A DNA stretch of 15,215 nucleotides, from the IMG/VR virus record IMGVR_UViG_2627853678_000004. One strand, 5' to 3'. A program made the translations under genes and the position numbers. This document shows, in pieces, positions 1-15,215 of the stretch (position 1 is the stretch's first letter; each line of letters starts with the position of its first letter). A model generated the notes under the pieces. That model saw nothing but the letters and a program-made list of their open reading frames with translations. It did no database searches and was not told the DNA's origin. This DNA is from a virus (taxonomy: Duplodnaviria; Heunggongvirae; Uroviricota; Caudoviricetes).

Positions 1-588
1 CTTGGCAGTCTCAGCCTCTCTACTGGGCAGTCGGTGATAAAAAAAGCCGAATACCAGGGTGGAGATAATTACCACATCATGGTTAGAAACATAGTGTTGC
101 AGCGCGATGTACAGCACGGCGGAGGCAAATGAGACACCGGCATACAACTCTTTCTGGAATACCAGTGGGATACGTTTACAGAACATATCGCGCAAAACGC
201 CGCCAAACACGCCGGTGGTTACCGCCGCGACAACGGCAATAATTGGGCCGTGCCCCATATCCAGTGCAACCTGTGCGCCGATGATAGAAAAGACCACCAG
301 TCCAAGCGCATCGAGCACCAGAAACACTTTGCGCAGGTAAGGCATTACAGGAGCAACGATAGTGGTGAGTACTGCGGCGGTAGCGACGATAATCACATAT
401 TCCGGGTGTTTGACCCAGCCGAGCGGATAGTGGCCCAGCAGAATATCGCGCACTGACCCTCCGCCAATTGCGGTGGCGGTCGCAATAATAATTACGCCAA
501 ATGTATCCATGCGGCGTCGCCCGGCCGCCAGAGCCCCCGTCATGGCTTCGGCAGTAATGCCAACCAAATACAAAATGTGTAACAGCAT
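1..588 (-). CDS. yicG: UPF0126-family inner membrane protein YicG, 5' portion (3' end lies beyond the window start)
   Basis: Minus-strand reading from ATG at 586-588 gives [32 protein letters not shown]..., a hydrophobic protein with the two GxxxRD-type repeats of the UPF0126 family. A GGGAGAG Shine-Dalgarno precedes the ATG. The ORF is still open at position 1. Identification as yicG is from recalled sequence and its adjacency to dinD. Confidence 0.75.
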
Positions 589-1747: not shown

Positions 1748-1767
1748 AACTGTATTTATATACAGTT
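1748..1767. promoter_or_regulatory. LexA (SOS) box upstream of dinD
   Basis: AACTGTATTTATATACAGTT is an exact CTGT-N8-ACAG palindrome. Its reverse complement AACTGTATATAAATACAGTT matches my recollection of the dinD operator. Confidence 0.75.
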
Positions 1768-1898: not shown

Positions 1899-2054
1899 TG
1901 AAAAGTAAGAATTGGCGTTACGAGTTATTCAATGTTGAATCTGTTTATTGAGTAGGTTGATTAAAGCTGCGTGGTTGCTGGTTTTTTTATAATGCGTTTT
2001 TTCATTAGGTACACCCTTGTGTACACCGTAAAGTGATGTGCTTAAAGGCTGCGT

Positions 2055-2879
2055 CTATTTTTTATCCAGCTTCTTGGCGGCAGATTCTAATTGTTTGATG
2101 CTTTTTTCCGGTACGGGCAGATTCTCTGGCATTGTCCCGCCTAGCTCCTGGATTGTTTGCCTAACTTTCCGGCCGACCTCGAAGTGAGTTTCATTAGCTT
2201 TTTGCTTCGATTTAACATTATCTCTGCGGAGCTTTTCTTCTGCCTGAGTCGCTCGGAACAGGTTGGCTGCCAATTCGGTAGAACCCATGTGATCGAGTAT
2301 CTTTTGGCTCTTTTTAAGACCTTTTCGCTGATGGATAGCCTTTTGGTCTAACCCGCCATAAAGCCCCTTGTATCCGTGATTCTGGAAGATTGCAAAGTCC
2401 AATGTTGTTTCAACACCAGCTTGCTGTGCTGCCTCAACAAGTTGCTTGTTGTGTTCCTTTAACTCGTTTCGGAGAAAAAGGCGCTTTTGATCCTCGCGGA
2501 GTCGCTTGAATGTTTCATCGTCAGCTAGTTCTTGCCGTCTGGTCTGTATTGCAAAATATGTTTGCCCAGCAGCAATAACTGGCTTGCTAGGATCGCCGTT
2601 CTGCACAACTAGATAGCAGGCATATCTGGACAAATGAACATCTTCCAACTCTCGTTGGGCACCAGACCCTAGAACAACCATTTTGGTGGTATCAACGAAA
2701 TGGTCTGAAACCTCTTGGTTGCTGGTTTCACACGCCTGAGCTGCTCGTGATAGAACGTTTTGAAAGTTTCGCCAATCTCGATAATCCAGTAGTGGTGCCA
2801 AATCTCTTGCTGACCAATATTCCTGCCCTTCGCTTCCATATTGTCGTAAGTCTTCAAATGGTTGATGGTGCTCGTTCAT
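2055..2879 (-). CDS. DinD-like paralog (274 aa), probably element-borne
   Basis: Full-length ORF starting MNEHHQPFEDLRQYG..., roughly 85-90% amino-acid identity to the adjacent dinD by eye but clearly diverged at nucleotide level. Same GGAGTG-type Shine-Dalgarno. No CTGT-N8-ACAG box is visible in its upstream region 2880-3013. Confidence 0.75.
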   Translation of the reverse strand: MNEHHQPFEDLRQYGSEGQEYWSARDLAPLLDYRDWRNFQNVLSRAAQACETSNQEVSDHFVDTTKMVVLGSGAQRELEDVHLSRYACYLVVQNGDPSKPVIAAGQTYFAIQTRRQELADDETFKRLREDQKRLFLRNELKEHNKQLVEAAQQAGVETTLDFAIFQNHGYKGLYGGLDQKAIHQRKGLKKSQKILDHMGSTELAANLFRATQAEEKLRRDNVKSKQKANETHFEVGRKVRQTIQELGGTMPENLPVPEKSIKQLESAAKKLDKK

Positions 2880-3013
2880 TGCTCACTCCATGTATTGGCT
2901 TGATGTTCAAGTGTGGTGACTTTTACTGGCGCTACTGCTAGCGGAGAGACTCAATATCTCACATCCTGATTAATGTATGATAGAGGTATCCCACAATAAG
3001 GAACCAGCCAGCC

Positions 3014-3373
3014 ATGAGAATGACCAACCGCAAAAAAGAGATACTCAGCTACTTTGAGCCGGATAACCTCGAATGGGTGACAGGTGAGATTGGTGCGCCG
3101 CCGTTCGATGTATCGGGCGTGGCCTACCTGCTTCACGGCATGGTGTCGTTCGATAATCGCCACCAGCTCGAATCAACCCGGCGCACGCTGGAAAACATGG
3201 TTGCTGGTGGACTGCTTGAGCGGGTGACAGTGTATGAATCGCGCCAGATACGGCGCGGCGGTGAGACTAACGCAACGGTCGTGCGCTACGGTTTACCCGG
3301 TCAGTGCGCTGTTATGCGCGATACTGGCGGCGCTGATAACGCAATATCAGGTGAATACATGCGGGTCAGTTAA
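3014..3373 (+). CDS. hypothetical protein (119 aa)
   Basis: The only convincing plus-strand ORF in the window; non-repetitive protein-like composition (MRMTNRKKEILSYFEPDNLEWVTGEIGAPPFDVSG...). An AGGAA lies upstream, and 3020 is an alternative ATG. I do not recognise the family. Confidence 0.45.
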   Translation: MRMTNRKKEILSYFEPDNLEWVTGEIGAPPFDVSGVAYLLHGMVSFDNRHQLESTRRTLENMVAGGLLERVTVYESRQIRRGGETNATVVRYGLPGQCAVMRDTGGADNAISGEYMRVS

Positions 3374-3908
3374 TAGCCTGCAATCTGTCGTTGATGCGGC
3401 TCAGGTCGTAAACCCGGCGTTCAATATCCAGCATCAGGAAATTGTGGATCTCGGCCTGCTCAGGATTATCAGACTCTCTGGCCTGTAATAGCAATTCATT
3501 GTAACCATGCAAGCCGCCTGAGTTTTCCGCCGGGGTGGTGCCTTTCCCACGCAGGCAGCTAATGGGCTGATTGCTCGTATCGTGTGTTTGCTTCTCCAGC
3601 ACAATGACGCAATCCCACCAGTCGCCAAAGTCATACGTGTAAACCAGCTTGTCACCATCATTCTGGAGCGCTGCCCATAGTGGTGTGATTGCCGCATTAC
3701 CCATGCTTTCATCCTCACCCCATACGCGATACTCGCTACCGGGATCACCTTTACGCCCTTTCTCGAACATATACAGGTGTTCGTCATTCCAGCCAAAAGC
3801 CAACTGGATCACCGCGTGAAGTTCACTAAAGGGGATTTGCTCTGGAACCAGCACACGCCGCCATATAGGTGGTTTGCTGTCTCGGATGGTTATCTTTAGC
3901 TGGTACAT
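3366..3908 (-). CDS. pRiA4b ORF-3-like family protein
   Basis: Start placed at the internal ATG 3906-3908 (MYQLKITIRDSKPPIWRRVLVPEQIPFSELHAVIQLAFGWNDEHLYMF...), with AGGA 7 nt upstream. The YQLK...PPIWRR...GW.D.HL pattern is the recalled signature of the pRiA4b ORF-3-like domain. The six-frame ORF extends to 3956 without support. Confidence 0.6.
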   Translation of the reverse strand: MYQLKITIRDSKPPIWRRVLVPEQIPFSELHAVIQLAFGWNDEHLYMFEKGRKGDPGSEYRVWGEDESMGNAAITPLWAALQNDGDKLVYTYDFGDWWDCVIVLEKQTHDTSNQPISCLRGKGTTPAENSGGLHGYNELLLQARESDNPEQAEIHNFLMLDIERRVYDLSRINDRLQAIN

Positions 3909-3991
3909 GCAAATCCTGAATAAATGCGAATCGGAAGGATAACGATACTGACGCACTCACAATTCTGTAAAGGTGAATAAAGGTAATTTGC

Positions 3992-4213
3992 TTAATAAGC
4001 ATAAGTTACATGCGGAATAATCCCGTATCTACTGCGTGGCGCTGGCTTCTTCCACTGGTAGGCAGGCGCTCGCATCATCTCCCCGAACCGTTTGCGCCGG
4101 GCTGTATCAGCTTCAATAATGCGCTCCATTTCCCGAACCTCTGCCGGGGTAAGCTGGTGGCCTTCATGCTCCAGTTTAGCGGCTGTGATTGCGGCTATCT
4201 GCTGTGGTGTCAT
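3992..4213 (-). CDS. small hypothetical protein (73 aa)
   Basis: Internal ATG at 4211-4213 with AGGGG 8 nt upstream; product MTPQQIAAITAAKLEHEGHQLTPAEVREMERIIEADTARRKRF.... The longer ORF to 4369 adds only a low-complexity basic extension and runs across a strong hairpin. Confidence 0.35.
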   Translation of the reverse strand: MTPQQIAAITAAKLEHEGHQLTPAEVREMERIIEADTARRKRFGEMMRAPAYQWKKPAPRSRYGIIPHVTYAY

Positions 4214-4294: not shown

Positions 4295-4321
4295 AAACGC
4301 CCTTTTGGGCGTTTTGCTTTT
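4295..4321 (+). terminator. terminator-like hairpin
   Basis: AAACGCCC-TTTT-GGGCGTTT is a perfect 8 bp stem with a 4 nt loop, followed on the plus strand by TGCTTTT. It lies in the leader of the 73-aa gene; functional strand is uncertain. Confidence 0.35.
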
Positions 4322-4482
4322 ACAGCTTCGGGCCAATATCTTTGGCAGCTTTCCCCGTCTTACGCTCAATCACGCCCGTGATATAGCTGCGCGTTCTGTT
4401 TCTCACTGGCTGGCCTCCTGCGAATTACTGCGCATTAACTGCGATCTGCGCAAAAAATGAATGAGAGATAATAAGCGTTTTT

Positions 4483-4568
4483 CTGCGTACTGCGCACCAG
4501 TGGCGCGAACCAGAATATTTTGGACTGCCTAAATCGAATATGGCTTCCAGCCCGCTACTGGCGCGGTT
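4483..4568. repeat. copy 1 of an ~86 bp conserved intergenic repeat
   Basis: CTGCGTACTGCGCACCAGTGGCGCGAACCAG...GGCTTCCAGCCCGCTACTGGCGCGGTTC aligns to 5268-5354 at roughly 85% identity, and the final 26 bp are identical. Confidence 0.8.
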
Positions 4569-4638
4569 CTCTCTTCATATGGGCTTTGAGTCTGTCCAGT
4601 ACAGTCCAGTATTTCAACATTGGTGACTATACGGATTG

Positions 4639-5016
4639 CTAACATGCGCCGCTTTTTTTAACCCTTCGCAGATCCCGCCTTGCTTGCATTGAAACGGCTC
4701 TCGCTAATCTCAGCTCAAGCCGTGCGATTCTGTCGGCATGTAGCCCCATGAGTCCGTTAATCAATGTCATCTCGCGCCATTCTTCTGTTCCCGGCGTCGG
4801 ATTATTCGCCAGTAATAGCCCGTATCTCTCAGCCAGCATGAGGTTTCTTGCACGATTTCGCACCAGCGGAGAAAGCGCCTCTCCCCCCTCAAATGGGAAG
4901 AATGCCCGCCGACTGCGTTCGCCATGTTTGACGGCATTAGTATTGCCCAATGGTGCGCCTGCGCCTTTCCGCTTGCCACCCCATCCCGATCTTGATTGTT
5001 GGCTATTTTTTTTCAT
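4639..5016 (-). CDS. small basic protein with a GxGxPxGNxNAxKHG motif, possibly terminase small subunit-like
   Basis: ORF with ATG at 5014-5016 (MKKNSQQSRSGWGGKRKGAGAPLGNTNAVKHGERSRR...). I recall the N-terminal motif from some phage small-terminase or DNA-packaging proteins. The Shine-Dalgarno is weak and the function assignment is tentative. Confidence 0.4.
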   Translation of the reverse strand: MKKNSQQSRSGWGGKRKGAGAPLGNTNAVKHGERSRRAFFPFEGGEALSPLVRNRARNLMLAERYGLLLANNPTPGTEEWREMTLINGLMGLHADRIARLELRLARAVSMQARRDLRRVKKSGAC

Positions 5017-5267
5017 TTAACGGCTCACTGTGCGCATTTTTGTGCGCAAAAACCTTAACAAACCCTAACAATACCTTAATAAAACTGTATATCTAACTTC
5101 CGCCATCTACTGCGAACTGATAGCGCCCAAGCCAGAAATATCAAGCCTCTCCACCATTTTGCGAATGCGCAATTCGCGCTTACAAATTACTGCGAATTCG
5201 CAATTTCTGTACGCAATGCCACCGTTAGCATTTGTCAGGTAGTACGCACGTTGAATACGCAGTTTTG

Positions 5268-5354
5268 CTGCGCACTGCGTACCAGTGGAACGAACCAGAT
5301 ATTTAGGACGTCCTGAATCACGATTTGGCTTCCAGCCCGCTACTGGCGCGGGTC
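5268..5354. repeat. copy 2 of the ~86 bp conserved intergenic repeat
   Basis: CTGCGCACTGCGTACCAGTGGAACGAACCAG...GGCTTCCAGCCCGCTACTGGCGCGGGTC; contains the perfect palindrome AGGACGTCCT. Direct repeat of 4483-4568. Confidence 0.8.
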
Positions 5355-5420
5355 TGGCGCTGCTAGGGTTTTAAATCCGTACTAAACAGTACTAAATTTT
5401 CCGCCGTTTGGGTGCGAAAC

Positions 5421-6307: not shown

Positions 6308-6567
6308 TGTTGTCTCTGTTGTCTTTGTTGTCTCACGGCTCTACAGGCCGCGCCACGTCTGGGTTTTGCTGAGACAACATTTGCAATTTCGTGTTGTCTC
6401 ACCCGGCATAAATGTTGTCTCACTGCCTGCCGGACTAAAAACACACGTTCGCCCTGTTGTCTCAAAATGGCTAAATGTTGTCTCAATGTTGTCTCAAAAA
6501 TTAAAATAAAATCCTTATAAATCAATGTAACTTACAAAATGAGACAACAAAGACAACAGAGACAACA
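6308..6567. repeat. iteron array and AT-rich tract: putative replication origin
   Basis: Eleven copies of TGTTGTCTC or its complement, counting two one-base variants. A perfect 27 bp inverted repeat (6308-6334 against 6541-6567) brackets the region, and an AT-rich tract lies at 6496-6540. The array sits directly 3' of the primase-helicase gene. Confidence 0.6.
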
Positions 6568-10612: not shown

Positions 10613-10781
10613 GATGGCAGCCTCTATACAGTGAATTTTGAATTCACCACCAAGAGACGCCAATCTCAGACTGGTGGTGAGCTGAACAAGGTTGGCGTAA
10701 CCGGCCTGTATAGACACCGGCCTTCCTTTCGGAAGCCTCATCCAGCCCACCATAATTTGGGTGCGCAGGAATTTTGCCGAC

Positions 10782-10804
10782 AAAAAAACACGCTTAGTGC
10801 GTGT
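10782..10804 (-). terminator. putative intrinsic terminator or attenuator in the leader
   Basis: On the minus-strand RNA, ACACGC-loop-GCGUGU (6 bp stem, 5 nt loop) is followed by UUUUUUU. It lies inside the long non-coding-looking region upstream of the small-ORF/primase operon. Confidence 0.35.
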
Positions 10805-11132
10805 CGGCACTATACAGGTTATCGGGACGCCAATCCCGGCACCTGATTTTGCAGGTGCGCTATAACCATAAACCGGGTTGGCGATAGTCGGCAAGCCCTT
10901 TTTTATGGACTCGCAAAACTCACCTTCGCGCGTGCGCGTACTGGTCGCAAAACTCGAAAAAAACTTAGGATTTATTAGGATTCGCAGCCCAATTCTCAGC
11001 CCAGAAAACGCCTCTAAAATGTCGTCATTTGTCGCAACGGCGCGGCGATGAATGTCAGGTTTTGACAGGTTGTAAGGGTTAACATTTGTTAACAGGCTAG
11101 CCAGATTAAAGGCTTCTTTCTGGGCGGCAGGT

Positions 11133-13840: not shown

Positions 13841-13955
13841 CGCGTCACCTTTCACGCTGTGCCTTAAAGAGTGATTGAGCCAGGCGGTAAGGCTTCCCGC
13901 TTTTCGCCCCGTCGGGCTAGGCTCAATCTGTCCTCTGATTCTTTACATATCTTGG

Positions 13956-15215
13956 TTACTTCGCCTTTCTCAGCGGTGTAACGTTGTACTCTTCGCCGCG
14001 CTCCAGTGCCACCAGCAATCCCGCCCACTGTGTTAACGCGGCCCGGCGTTCATCAAAGTATTGGTGGCGGTTATAGATACCCTCCACGCCTTTAATTTTG
14101 TGGTTAAGGCATCTTTCTGCGACTACAGGATCAACGCCCAGCGCGGCTAAATGGGTGCGGGCCGTGCGCCGGAAGTCGTGAATAGTGAAATTCGGCACGT
14201 CCGGCATTTCAGCGCGAACCTTCGCCAGCGCAACGGGCAGGGTGCTTTCCTGAATATGGGGGATCATGCGGTTTTGCATCTTTCTGGCTGGCAGTACCCA
14301 TGCGCTGTTGCATGAGAACGTTTTAAGCTCTCTCAGCCATTCGACTGCTGGCGGTGCTAATGGAATGTCTATAGCGTCGCCGTTTTTGCTGCGTTCCTCT
14401 GGCAAGCGCCATACGGCTTTATCAAGATCGAACTCCTCCCAGCGGGCGGCGCATAACTCCATTTTGCGGACGCATAACGCTAACAGTAATTTGAACGTGA
14501 TTTCATTCTGGCGACTGAAACCCTTAGCCGTGCGCATGGCTTTGAATAGCTGGATTAACTCATCGCGTGTTAGCCAGCGGTCGCGGCTAACCTCCTTCCC
14601 TCCAGCGTCTGCCACCTCAAAGGCTGAACAGGGGTTAATCTCCAGCGCGTGCCGTTTGATTCCGTAGTCGAATATGCGGCGCGTCCATCTCAGCACGTCC
14701 GTTGCTATGGTCGGCGCTCCACGGTCAACAATACCTTTCAGCATGTCGTCGATATGGCGCGGCTTCACGTCCTCTACCTTCATGCTGCCAATGCAGGGGT
14801 TTATATCTTTGTCGATACGGCGGCGGAGTATATCGGGGTGCTTCCAGCGGGGCAGTATCTGACGTTCAAAGTATTCAGCGGCAAGCTCTGAAACGCGCAT
14901 GGCGTTTTTTTCTGCTTCCATCTTCGCCAGTGCTTCGGATTTCCGCTCCTGCTTCTCCCCGGCAACGTCATAACCCAGCGCAACACGCGCCGAAAGCTCC
15001 TTTGCTGTCTCTCTGGCCTTTGATAGTGATAGCTCGCTATACGAACCAATTAGCATTGCGCGGGACTTCCCTGCGAGTTTATAGCGGAATCTCCATGTGG
15101 GGGTTTTGTCGGCTTCACGGTAACGCAGGTATAAGCCGTTCCCGTCCGCCCGTCCCTCGAATCGCTCTCCGGCCTTTATCCACGCGCGGATCTGCATGTC
15201 TGTGAGTTTTGGCAT
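13956..15215 (-). CDS. int: tyrosine recombinase / integrase, P4 family
   Basis: 419 aa; N-terminus MPKLTDMQIRAWIKAGERFEGRADGNGLYLRYR is typical of P4-type integrases. C-terminal catalytic region has HDFRRTARTHL and GIYNRHQYFDERR. The start codon is at the last base of the window. Confidence 0.9.
   Translation of the reverse strand: MPKLTDMQIRAWIKAGERFEGRADGNGLYLRYREADKTPTWRFRYKLAGKSRAMLIGSYSELSLSKARETAKELSARVALGYDVAGEKQERKSEALAKMEAEKNAMRVSELAAEYFERQILPRWKHPDILRRRIDKDINPCIGSMKVEDVKPRHIDDMLKGIVDRGAPTIATDVLRWTRRIFDYGIKRHALEINPCSAFEVADAGGKEVSRDRWLTRDELIQLFKAMRTAKGFSRQNEITFKLLLALCVRKMELCAARWEEFDLDKAVWRLPEERSKNGDAIDIPLAPPAVEWLRELKTFSCNSAWVLPARKMQNRMIPHIQESTLPVALAKVRAEMPDVPNFTIHDFRRTARTHLAALGVDPVVAERCLNHKIKGVEGIYNRHQYFDERRAALTQWAGLLVALERGEEYNVTPLRKAK

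What the first reader, a model, noticed from the sequence alone, without database searches (positions are those of the whole stretch)
2880..4213. Distal cargo block: divergent promoter region, orphan 119-aa gene convergent with a pRiA4b-ORF3-like gene, and a small gene with a strong leader hairpin
The 119-aa plus-strand gene and the pRiA4b-ORF3-like gene overlap tail to tail by 8 nt (3366-3373). The 119-aa gene is transcribed divergently from the DinD paralog across a 135 bp region. A perfect 8 bp hairpin with a T-run (4295-4321) sits in the leader of the 73-aa gene. None of these products has a known function, and this end of the element is where cargo would be expected.
Basis: partly seen in the sequence, partly recalled or inferred. 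Interest (0 to 1): 0.4.

Follow-up and report, generated by a model that had tools for sequence, protein, structure and literature searches.

The report
Far-end gene module of a phage satellite
This stretch is the far end of a phage-parasitic island (an EcCIMP1-type PICI) in the E. coli chromosome: a conserved small DNA-binding-type gene with its own palindromic control site faces a swappable passenger gene of unknown function, which is of modest interest and mostly ordinary.

Summary
The sequence features are real, but several labels are wrong. The window is E. coli yicG-dinD-[13.5 kb island]-yicC. The island is an EcCIMP1-type phage-inducible chromosomal island (PICI) inserted at the 3' end of yicC.

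- **Shared module:** Window 2970-4213 is a discrete 1.24 kb module, 94% identical to EcCIMP1, while the rest of the island is 68-87% identical.
- **119-aa gene:** It is not an orphan. It has over 500 protein clusters in Enterobacterales and occurs in 505 of 5426 complete E. coli genomes. It is the inward-facing gene at the island's att-distal end. A conserved 30-bp palindrome precedes it in all 25 related loci read, and in 27 of 28 viral contigs found by the palindrome. It is predicted to be winged-helix-like.
- **pRiA4b-ORF3 gene (PF07929):** This is the true passenger. It sits in a slot that holds other genes, or nothing, in related islands.
- **"73-aa" gene:** This is a 61-aa core gene frameshifted by a one-base deletion in this 454-style read.
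- **Hairpin:** It is stable, but its T-run is on the opposite strand, it lies outside the conserved module, and it is not conserved.

All three genes show a coding signature, and none has a known function. My best guess is that the 119-aa protein is an autoregulated DNA-binding protein. The passenger's role is unknown.

The parts
1926..1937 (.). attL core, an imperfect 12-bp repeat (TTAYTCRATRTT) that includes the yicC stop codon. This is the left boundary of the island.
   Evidence: K-12 empty-site comparison: K-12 homology ends here and resumes at L001 19381, beyond the window's right end.
1937..2031 (.). Conserved left-end arm of the island, about 95 bp. It probably forms part of attP.
   Evidence: The same sequence opens the island in Enterobacter and Shimwellia loci that lack dinD2 (L009, L010 in alignment A3; window sequence).
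2055..2879 (-). DinD paralog (274 aa), a passenger in the outermost slot between the left arm and the p119 module.
   Evidence: NCBIfam DinD equivalog, 493 bits against a cut-off of 242. Bro-N domain. PADLOC candidate PDC-S13, E 3e-126. No LexA box, unlike host dinD, which has one at 1750-1765. Found upstream of p119 in only one other locus, L019.
2970..2999 (.). 30-bp palindrome TTAWTGTAKGATA-N4-TATCCCACAWTAA. It overlaps a TATGAT -10-like hexamer and abuts the AAGGA Shine-Dalgarno of p119. It is a putative operator and the left edge of the conserved module.
   Evidence: Homology among loci starts exactly here. It is unique in the window, with 0 expected by chance. It is followed by a p119 homolog in 27 of 28 viral contigs found by the pattern. 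It is also present on a P1-like phage-plasmid. It is not a stable RNA hairpin, z +0.3.
3014..3373 (+). p119: a conserved 119-aa protein predicted to be winged-helix-like. It is the only + strand gene of the island.
   Evidence: 535 homologous clusters. Coding signature. AlphaFold model at pLDDT 80 with four helices and a beta-hairpin wing. Only weak winged-helix structural and Pfam matches.
3366..3908 (-). pRiA4b ORF-3 family protein (180 aa from the ATG at 3908; the open frame runs up to a GTG at 3956). It is a passenger in the slot between p119 and p61.
   Evidence: PF07929, E 2.9e-42. Homolog of PDB 2I1S, E 2.4e-21. Adjacent to p119 in 8 of 27 species-level loci. Found without p119 in Serratia.
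3942..3971 (-). Sigma-70-like promoter match (TTTACA-18-TATCGT) in the 120-nt spacer upstream of the pRiA4b gene.
   Evidence: Consensus scan only. The same match is present in EcCIMP1. This is weak evidence.
4029..4213 (-). p61: a conserved 61-aa gene. In the window a missing C after 4031 shifts the frame and gives the spurious 73-aa ORF 3992-4213. Its ATG at 4213 is the right edge of the conserved module.
4295..4321 (+). 8-bp G+C-rich hairpin with a T-run on the + strand. It looks like an intrinsic terminator for + strand transcription and is not conserved.
   Evidence: The surrounding 4323-4546 is a relic of a 203-aa gene and a spacer found in other islands.

Best explanation
The interval is the integrase-distal end of an EcCIMP1-type PICI, a phage satellite inserted at the 3' end of yicC. 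Its heart is a 1.24 kb module (2970-4213) that moves between islands as a block. The module has four parts:
- a 30-bp palindrome;
- p119, a winged-helix-like protein and the only gene that faces into the island;
- the pRiA4b-ORF3 family gene, on the opposite strand;
- the 61-aa gene p61, also on the opposite strand.

Shown:
- p119 plus its palindrome, and p61, are core features of the lineage.
- pRiA4b is an optional passenger in a slot between them. In other islands that slot holds toxin-antitoxin-like, packaging-related or other genes, or nothing.
- The DinD paralog fills a second slot between p119 and the att end.

Inferred:
- p119 binds its palindrome as a dimer. The palindrome covers the -10-like hexamer and reaches the ribosome-binding site, so binding would repress p119's own synthesis.
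- No terminator fits in the 8-nt overlap, so p119 transcription must run antisense into pRiA4b and p61, and the island's long minus-strand operon must run antisense into p119. p119 expression could therefore damp or bound transcription at the island's end.
- In this island the + strand hairpin at 4295-4321 would end that transcript.
- The biochemical role of the pRiA4b protein is unknown. From its position I expect a role in conflict between mobile elements, phages and host, not in the island's own life cycle.
For: - **Island identity and ends:**
- **Match to EcCIMP1:** same gene order as the experimentally mobilised EcCIMP1 (PMC11773190). Identity is 94% over exactly 2970-4213 and 68-87% elsewhere.
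- **p119 conservation and position:**
- **Palindrome:** conserved in all 25 related loci read, with upstream sequences unrelated. Linked to p119 in 27 of 28 viral contigs. Unique in the window. Does not fold as RNA.
- **Fold:**. All weak matches are winged-helix DNA-binding domains.
- **Slot variability:**
- **Independence of the two genes:**
- **Coding signatures:**
- **Excised circular form:** int and p119 flank attP.
Against: - No experiment or transcript data bear on p119 binding, autoregulation or antisense overlap.
- The -35 region is not conserved, and the -10-like hexamer lacks a canonical extended -10, so the promoter itself is unproven.
- Structural matches to winged-helix proteins are all above E 0.01 in the PDB.
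- In E. coli the close p119 variant and pRiA4b co-occur almost 1:1 (377 and 375 genomes). That would also fit a functional pair.
- The + strand terminator is not conserved, so it cannot be a general part of the mechanism.
Confidence: 0.55

Rival explanations
1. p119 and the pRiA4b protein form a two-gene functional system, for example a regulator plus effector, or a toxin-antitoxin-like or anti-phage pair. In this view the conserved tail-to-tail overlap couples their expression.
For: - In complete E. coli genomes the close p119 variant (377 genomes) and pRiA4b (375 genomes) occur in near-equal numbers. In every listed close-variant hit but one (H64), the pRiA4b gene lies under the end of the match.
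- The 8-nt overlap is kept in all pairs, down to 74% aa identity for both proteins.
- The genes travel inside one 94%-identical block between otherwise diverged islands.
Against: - p119 with its palindrome occurs without pRiA4b in 19 of 27 species-level loci, in about 124 E. coli genomes with divergent variants, on P1-like phage-plasmids and in a Lastavirus phage.
- A 75%-identical pRiA4b occurs in Serratia without p119, next to a Phd/Doc pair.
- The palindrome is not found upstream of pRiA4b.
- Neither protein matches PADLOC.
Confidence: 0.2
2. p119 is tied to recombination. It would be a directionality factor, or a regulator of int or attP, that sits on the other side of attP from the integrase in the excised circle.
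For: - In a 19-kb circular Klebsiella record, and in several viral contigs, int (-) and p119 (+) are divergent neighbours across attP.
- Small winged-helix proteins are the usual form of excisionases (general knowledge).
Against: - The distance from the att core to the palindrome varies from about 165 bp to over 1 kb, because cargo such as dinD2 is inserted between them.
- The island already has an AlpA-family gene.
- Homologs with the same palindrome sit upstream of a DarB-like gene on a P1-like plasmid, and a more distant homolog (no such palindrome upstream) sits in the early operon of a phage, neither next to int or att.
- There is only one palindrome copy and none near the att core.
Confidence: 0.12
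3. One reading: the hairpin is a leader or attenuator element that controls the small gene, and the block is simply unrelated cargo.
For: The hairpin is stable on both strands, z -3.2 and -3.4. It lies 82 nt upstream of the small gene's ATG.
Against: - On the gene's strand the hairpin is followed by UUUGAGAG, not a U-run.
- It lies outside the conserved module, which ends at the ATG.
- The upstream regions of p61 in 13 other loci lack it.
- The spacer is a mosaic with a gene relic.
- p119 and p61 are core genes, not cargo.
Confidence: 0.05

Closest known systems
EcCIMP1, a PICI of E. coli MP1 mobilised by phage Kapi1 (ISME J 2025, PMC11773190)
   Same: Same gene order: int, AlpA-type HTH, AntA/AntB, DUF4222, Ash/Icd, TOPRIM-DUF927 primase, PerC, 61-aa gene, pRiA4b gene, inward-facing 119-aa gene. 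Identity is 94% over window 2970-4213.
   Different: EcCIMP1 sits at tRNA-Thr next to a vat island, not at yicC. It carries P22-like ejection-protein genes between the primase and PerC, has no DinD paralog, and is only 68-87% identical elsewhere. A text search of the paper for locus tags EcCIMP1_026 to _029 found nothing.
Accessory-gene hotspots of phage satellites (P4 and PICI defence hotspots; from my own knowledge of Rousset 2022 and Fillol-Salom 2022, not read here)
   Same: A slot between conserved genes whose content changes from island to island. It includes toxin-antitoxin-like (Panacea/SocA), M78 peptidase and DprA/SLOG genes.
   Different: The gene in the slot here belongs to no catalogued defence family. 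Some alternative occupants are packaging genes (TerS, DUF2280), so the slot is not purely a defence hotspot.
PF07929 / MM3350 (PDB 2I1S); 'IS1096 element passenger TnpR' proteins
   Same: Clear sequence membership: E 2.9e-42 to Pfam and E 2.4e-21 to 2I1S over the full length. Like the IS1096 passenger, it is carried by a mobile element (H102).
   Different: The family has no assigned function. The enterobacterial subgroup is narrow, with the next relatives at 38% identity or less. Contexts of distant members are heterogeneous and uninformative.
Autoregulated winged-helix repressors (MarR, PaaX, IclR-type DNA-binding domains)
   Same: Predicted helix-helix-helix plus beta-hairpin wing. A palindrome lies over its own -10-like hexamer and 5' leader. 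Weak Pfam hits in family members are all to such domains.
   Different: No member reaches a Pfam threshold for any of them. The best PDB structural match is E 0.034, TM 0.40. A conserved C-terminal tail (YGLPG...RD..G) has no counterpart.

Membership tests
Gram-negative PICI (phage-inducible chromosomal island), EcCIMP1 type | Tyrosine integrase at one end, with flanking att repeats at a specific chromosomal site. | tested here: met
   Integrase at 13956-15215 (Arm-DNA-bind_3 plus Phage_integrase). An imperfect 12-bp core lies at both junctions relative to the K-12 empty site.
Gram-negative PICI (phage-inducible chromosomal island), EcCIMP1 type | AlpA-family regulator and a primase/replicase, a size of about 10-20 kb, and no virion structural or lysis genes. 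| tested here: met
   AlpA PF05930, E 5.6e-8. Zn-ribbon/Toprim/DUF927 primase. The island is about 13.5 kb. No structural or lysis gene appears in the RefSeq annotation of the island.
Gram-negative PICI (phage-inducible chromosomal island), EcCIMP1 type | Excision, replication and transfer induced by a helper phage. | not testable with these tools
   Shown experimentally for the relative EcCIMP1 (PMC11773190). Indirect support comes from circular 17-22 kb 'plasmid' records and from viral contigs with int and p119 joined across attP.
PF07929 (plasmid pRiA4b ORF-3-like / MM3350-like) | Full-length match above the Pfam gathering score. | tested here: met
   144.7 bits against a cut-off of 26.6, residues 2-170 of 180. 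PDB 2I1S, E 2.4e-21.
Winged-helix DNA-binding proteins (for the 119-aa protein) | Tri-helical bundle followed by a beta-hairpin wing, with significant similarity to a known winged-helix domain. | tested here: inconclusive
   The topology is present in a model at pLDDT 80. However, the best PDB match is E 0.034, TM 0.40, and Pfam hits in family members are sub-threshold. DNA binding is untested.
Known anti-phage defence or toxin-antitoxin systems (for p119, pRiA4b, p61) | Match to a catalogued defence or TA protein family. | tested here: not met
   No PADLOC hit at E<=1 for any of the three. Pfam and NCBIfam give no TA domain.
Intrinsic terminator or leader attenuator of the small gene (for the hairpin) | G+C-rich stem followed by a U-run on the transcribed strand, conserved with the gene. 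| tested here: not met
   The U-run is on the + strand only. The hairpin is absent upstream of p61 in 13 other loci and lies outside the conserved block. It does meet the form of a + strand terminator.
DinD (for the paralog at 2055-2879) | Equivalog-level sequence match, and SOS control through a LexA box. | tested here: inconclusive
   The sequence match is met: NF008573, 493.5 bits against 242. The LexA box is not met: the only perfect CTGT-N8-ACAG lies upstream of host dinD at 1750-1765, and none is found in 2880-3013.

The most novel reading that the evidence does not exclude
Two novel readings are not excluded.
1. The palindrome-p119 unit is a portable control cassette of enterobacterial satellites and phage-plasmids. 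It would set expression of whatever cargo lies next to it. Downstream genes on the same strand (a DarB-like gene on a P1-like plasmid, RHH-like genes in some islands) would be co-transcribed. Facing genes (pRiA4b, p61) would be affected by head-on transcription.
2. The pRiA4b-ORF3 protein, present in about 7% of complete E. coli genomes only in this module, is a new single-gene effector against phages or helper phages. That would give PF07929 its first function.
Probability: 0.15. Interest if true: 0.55.

Novelty: new member of a known kind. Interest (0 to 1): 0.3.

Why it matters
- PICIs and other phage satellites are major carriers of accessory and anti-phage genes. Knowing which end genes are core and which are swappable tells where to look for new cargo.
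- The module defined here is in roughly 7-9% of complete E. coli genomes and in an experimentally tractable island, EcCIMP1. Its three genes belong to families with no assigned function.
- A defined palindrome plus a small DNA-binding-type protein gives a directly testable regulatory hypothesis.
- PF07929 is a large family without any assigned function.
- The window also shows how single-base sequencing errors create false ORFs (73 aa instead of 61 aa).

Tried and rejected
- **Family libraries for p119, pRiA4b, p61 and the neighbouring 125-aa protein:** PADLOC, PHROGs and NCBIfam gave no useful hits apart from a weak TerS-like motif in the 125-aa protein.
- **First AlphaFold run for p119:** A shallow alignment gave pLDDT 55, so the model was discarded. 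A second run with distant homologs gave pLDDT 80.
- **Structure searches with the good model:** Foldseek found nothing significant in the PDB and one unnamed viral homolog. A profile search of PDB sequences gave 0 hits.
- **p119 as Rpp (PICI packaging redirector):** Rejected. Rpp is 144-153 aa with a MerR-like N-terminus (PMC6739421), and the RppC structure did not appear among the Foldseek matches. The island's 144-aa protein also has no PDB sequence match.
- **p119 as P1 Ulx:** Rejected. In P1, ulx lies downstream of darB, and P1 gave no tblastn hit.
- **Palindrome as an RNA hairpin sequestering the Shine-Dalgarno:** Rejected on folding (z +0.3). The one variable arm position does not covary consistently.
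- **Genomic contexts of distant PF07929 members:** Heterogeneous and uninformative.
- **Literature search for pRiA4b, PF07929 and MM3350:** No functional study was found.
- **LexA control of the DinD paralog:** Not supported.
- **Minus-strand hairpin over the p119 start (3005-3030):** Not more stable than shuffles.
Full report
**Where the window comes from**

The window matches E. coli chromosomes. Thirty-three of 5426 complete genomes carry the whole stretch at 99.4% identity or more. In strain SCU-308 the region is annotated as follows:
- yicG and dinD;
- a second dinD;
- a 119-aa hypothetical protein;
- a pRiA4b ORF-3 family protein;
- a 61-aa hypothetical protein, then further hypotheticals;
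- PerC, SSB and a TOPRIM-DUF927 protein;
- Icd-like, DUF4222, AntA/AntB and an HTH protein;
- an integrase, then yicC.

Bases 1-39 of the window do not match the genome and look like a sequencing adaptor. The window also differs from the complete genome by four single-base deletions, after 4031, 6296, 9497 and 12079. Three of them break conserved reading frames. I treat them as read errors.

**Ends of the element**

I compared the region with the empty site in K-12. K-12 homology stops at window 1936 and resumes at the yicC stop codon, about 200 bp beyond the window's right end. An imperfect 12-bp core (TTAYTCRATRTT) lies at both junctions. The island is therefore about 13.5 kb and is inserted at the 3' end of yicC, with its integrase next to yicC.

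The first ~95 bp inside the left end (1937-2031) recur at the left end of related islands in Enterobacter and Shimwellia. The second dinD (2055-2879) lies inside the island, between this arm and the 119-aa gene.

**What kind of element**

- Pfam finds a P4-type integrase, an AlpA-family HTH, an AntA/AntB antirepressor, an Ash/Icd-like protein, a Zn-ribbon/Toprim/DUF927 primase, SSB and PerC.
- Rfam finds isrK, C4 antisense RNA with its target, and the int-alpA RNA.
- The PICI EcCIMP1 of E. coli MP1 was shown experimentally to excise, circularise and be transferred by phage Kapi1 (PMC11773190). Its gene order is the same.
- EcCIMP1 ends with PerC, a 61-aa gene, a pRiA4b gene and an inward-facing 119-aa gene.

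The window's island is thus an EcCIMP1-type PICI at a different integration site.

**A discrete shared module**

Aligned to EcCIMP1, the window is 94% identical over exactly 2970-4213 and 68-87% identical elsewhere. PerC is the exception at 92.5%. The left edge of this block is the first base of a palindrome. The right edge is the ATG of the small gene.

**The 119-aa gene (p119)**

*Distribution.*
- It has 535 homologous 90%-identity clusters, nearly all in Enterobacterales.
- It has only 94 representatives at 50% identity, so the family is narrow but populous.
- It is in 505 of 5426 complete E. coli genomes.
- In the 27 species-level genome loci fetched through the protein, it faces the recognised island genes wherever these were found beside it. 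It lies near the end farthest from the integrase.

*Sequence and structure.*
- Codon-position differences (487/490/1679), a constant length of 360 nt in the eleven closely related loci compared, and absence of internal stops show that it is a real gene.
- No library names it.
- A first structure prediction was poor. A second, using an alignment that includes distant members, gave pLDDT 80 with four helices and a long beta-hairpin.
- Foldseek found only weak matches in the PDB. The best E-value was 0.034, and the matches are winged-helix domains of TFIIE, RTP and methyltransferase dimerisation modules.
- In the viral library there was one significant but unnamed match.
- Sub-threshold Pfam hits in individual family members are all to winged-helix families. 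One distant member carries a C-terminal MUG113/T5orf172 domain.

I conclude that p119 has a winged-helix-like, probably DNA-binding, fold. Membership in a named family is not shown.

**The palindrome**

Upstream sequences of p119 from the window and 11 loci were aligned, and 25 loci were then compared directly.
- They are unrelated until 44 nt before the ATG.
- From that point all share TTAWTGTAKGATA-N4-TATCCCACAWTAAGGA.
- The 13-nt arms are inverted repeats with two internal mismatches. The four central bases vary freely.
- The left arm contains TATGAT (or TAGGAT), a -10-like hexamer. The right arm abuts the AAGGA ribosome-binding site.
- The site is unique in the window, with none expected by chance.
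- It does not fold as RNA better than shuffled sequence. A protein-binding DNA site is therefore more likely than an RNA structure.
- An exact-pattern scan of IMG/VR found 28 contigs. In 27 of them a p119 homolog (51-97% identical) starts 13-15 nt after the site.
- The same unit sits on a 90-kb P1-like phage-plasmid, upstream of a DarB-like SNF2 gene.

I infer, but have not shown, that p119 binds this site and regulates its own promoter.

**The pRiA4b-ORF3 gene**

- It is a clear member of PF07929 and a homolog of the structural-genomics protein 2I1S. The family has no assigned function, and a literature search found none.
- The enterobacterial subgroup is small. The next relatives are 38% identical or less.
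- The gene lies directly after p119, always with the same 8-nt tail-to-tail overlap, in 8 of 27 species-level loci.
- In the others the space between p119 and the 61-aa gene is about 20 nt, or it holds other genes. These include:
  - a Panacea/SocA antitoxin pair;
  - an M78 peptidase with a membrane protein;
  - DUF2280;
  - a DprA/SLOG pair;
  - a small terminase subunit;
  - RHH-like genes on the + strand.
- A 75%-identical pRiA4b gene in Serratia lies next to DUF2280 and a Phd/Doc pair, with no p119 nearby.
- In E. coli the close p119 variant (377 genomes) and pRiA4b (375 genomes) go together. I read this as linkage within a recently spread block, because of the 94-98% DNA identity. A functional pairing cannot be excluded.

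**The small gene and the hairpin**

- With the missing C restored, the gene encodes 61 aa. Nearly all 81 homologous clusters are exactly 61 aa, and the gene shows a coding signature.
- The gene is present in most related islands.
- The hairpin at 4295-4314 is stable. Its T-run follows it only on the + strand.
- The hairpin lies outside the conserved block. The surrounding spacer includes a relic of a 203-aa gene found in other islands.
- The region upstream of the small gene is different in 13 other loci.
- It therefore cannot be a conserved leader element. In this island it could end + strand transcripts that start at p119, because no terminator can fit in the 8-nt overlap. This is inference.

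**The excised form**

A 19-kb circular Klebsiella record annotated as a plasmid is an island of this type. In it the integrase and p119 are divergent neighbours across attP. Several viral contigs show the same junction. This raised the idea that p119 acts in recombination. I consider it less likely for three reasons:
- The distance from the att core to the palindrome varies with inserted cargo.
- An AlpA-type gene is already present.
- Homologs on a phage-plasmid and in a Lastavirus phage are not next to int or att.

**The DinD paralog**

- It is an equivalog-level DinD with a Bro-N domain. It matches the PADLOC defence candidate PDC-S13.
- It lacks the LexA box that host dinD keeps at 1750-1765.
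- It occupies the outermost slot. In an O103:H2 island at the same site, that slot holds PerC genes, a transporter and an antiterminator Q gene.

**Verdict**

- the orphan status of the 119-aa gene;
- the length of the small gene;
- the role and strand of the hairpin.

What is there is the terminal module of a known kind of phage satellite:
- two core genes of unknown function, one of which is probably an autoregulated DNA-binding protein with a sharply conserved palindrome;
- one swappable passenger from a large family without a function.

It is a useful annotation and a testable lead, but not a surprising one.

Noticed in passing
window 1-39; single-base gaps after 4031, 6296, 9497 and 12079: The first 39 bases do not match any E. 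coli genome and look like a 454-type adaptor. Four one-base deletions relative to the complete genomes break the 61-aa gene, a 208-aa gene and the AntA/AntB gene. These are likely read errors.
   Followed up: yes
window 10670-10871 (-) and 13861-13927 (-): Rfam matches above gathering score: C4 antisense RNA, its a1/b1 target and isrK lie next to the Ash/Icd-like and AntA/AntB genes, giving a P1 immI-like module. The int-alpA RNA lies just downstream of the integrase gene.
   Followed up: no
window 4538-4570 and 5323-5355: A 33-nt direct repeat (94% identical) lies upstream of two successive gene slots, one before the 61-aa gene region and one before the 125-aa gene. The spacer at 4405-4500 is also rich in CTGCG motifs. 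These may be a shared regulatory element or a recombination seam between cassettes.
   Followed up: partly
window 4639-5016 (-): The 125-aa protein has a weak N-terminal match to small terminase subunits (NCBIfam E 1e-3, PHROG E 7e-3). Related islands carry TerS or DUF2280 genes in the same region, which suggests a packaging function.
   Followed up: partly
window 6394-6490 (L001 10355-10451): Repeated TGTTGTCTCA units lie just 3' of the primase gene. They are iteron-like and may be the island's replication origin.
   Followed up: no
window 1750-1765 and 2055-2879: Host dinD keeps a perfect LexA box, while the island's DinD paralog has none. DinD matches PADLOC defence candidate PDC-S13 (E 3e-126). 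The island is inserted between yicC and the dinD promoter.
   Followed up: partly
L043 (CP031370.2, 19.2 kb), and H103 and H105 in the plasmid collection: Small 'non-mobilizable plasmids' of Klebsiella and Raoultella (17-22 kb) carry p119. CP031370.2, the one whose annotation was read, is a circular island of this type with int and p119 joined across attP. It probably represents an excised or replicating PICI form.
   Followed up: partly
L041 (pPSS-10_3, 90.5 kb) 5001-5414: A P1-like phage-plasmid carries a p119 homolog with the same palindrome directly upstream of a DarB-like SNF2 gene. P1 itself has no such gene there.
   Followed up: partly
L040 (E. coli O103:H2 12009), same yicC-dinD site: A related island with a different primase occupies the same site. 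Host dinD there is a pseudogene, and the slot left of the p119-like gene holds two PerC genes, a YeeE/YedE transporter, an antiterminator Q gene and IS2.
   Followed up: no
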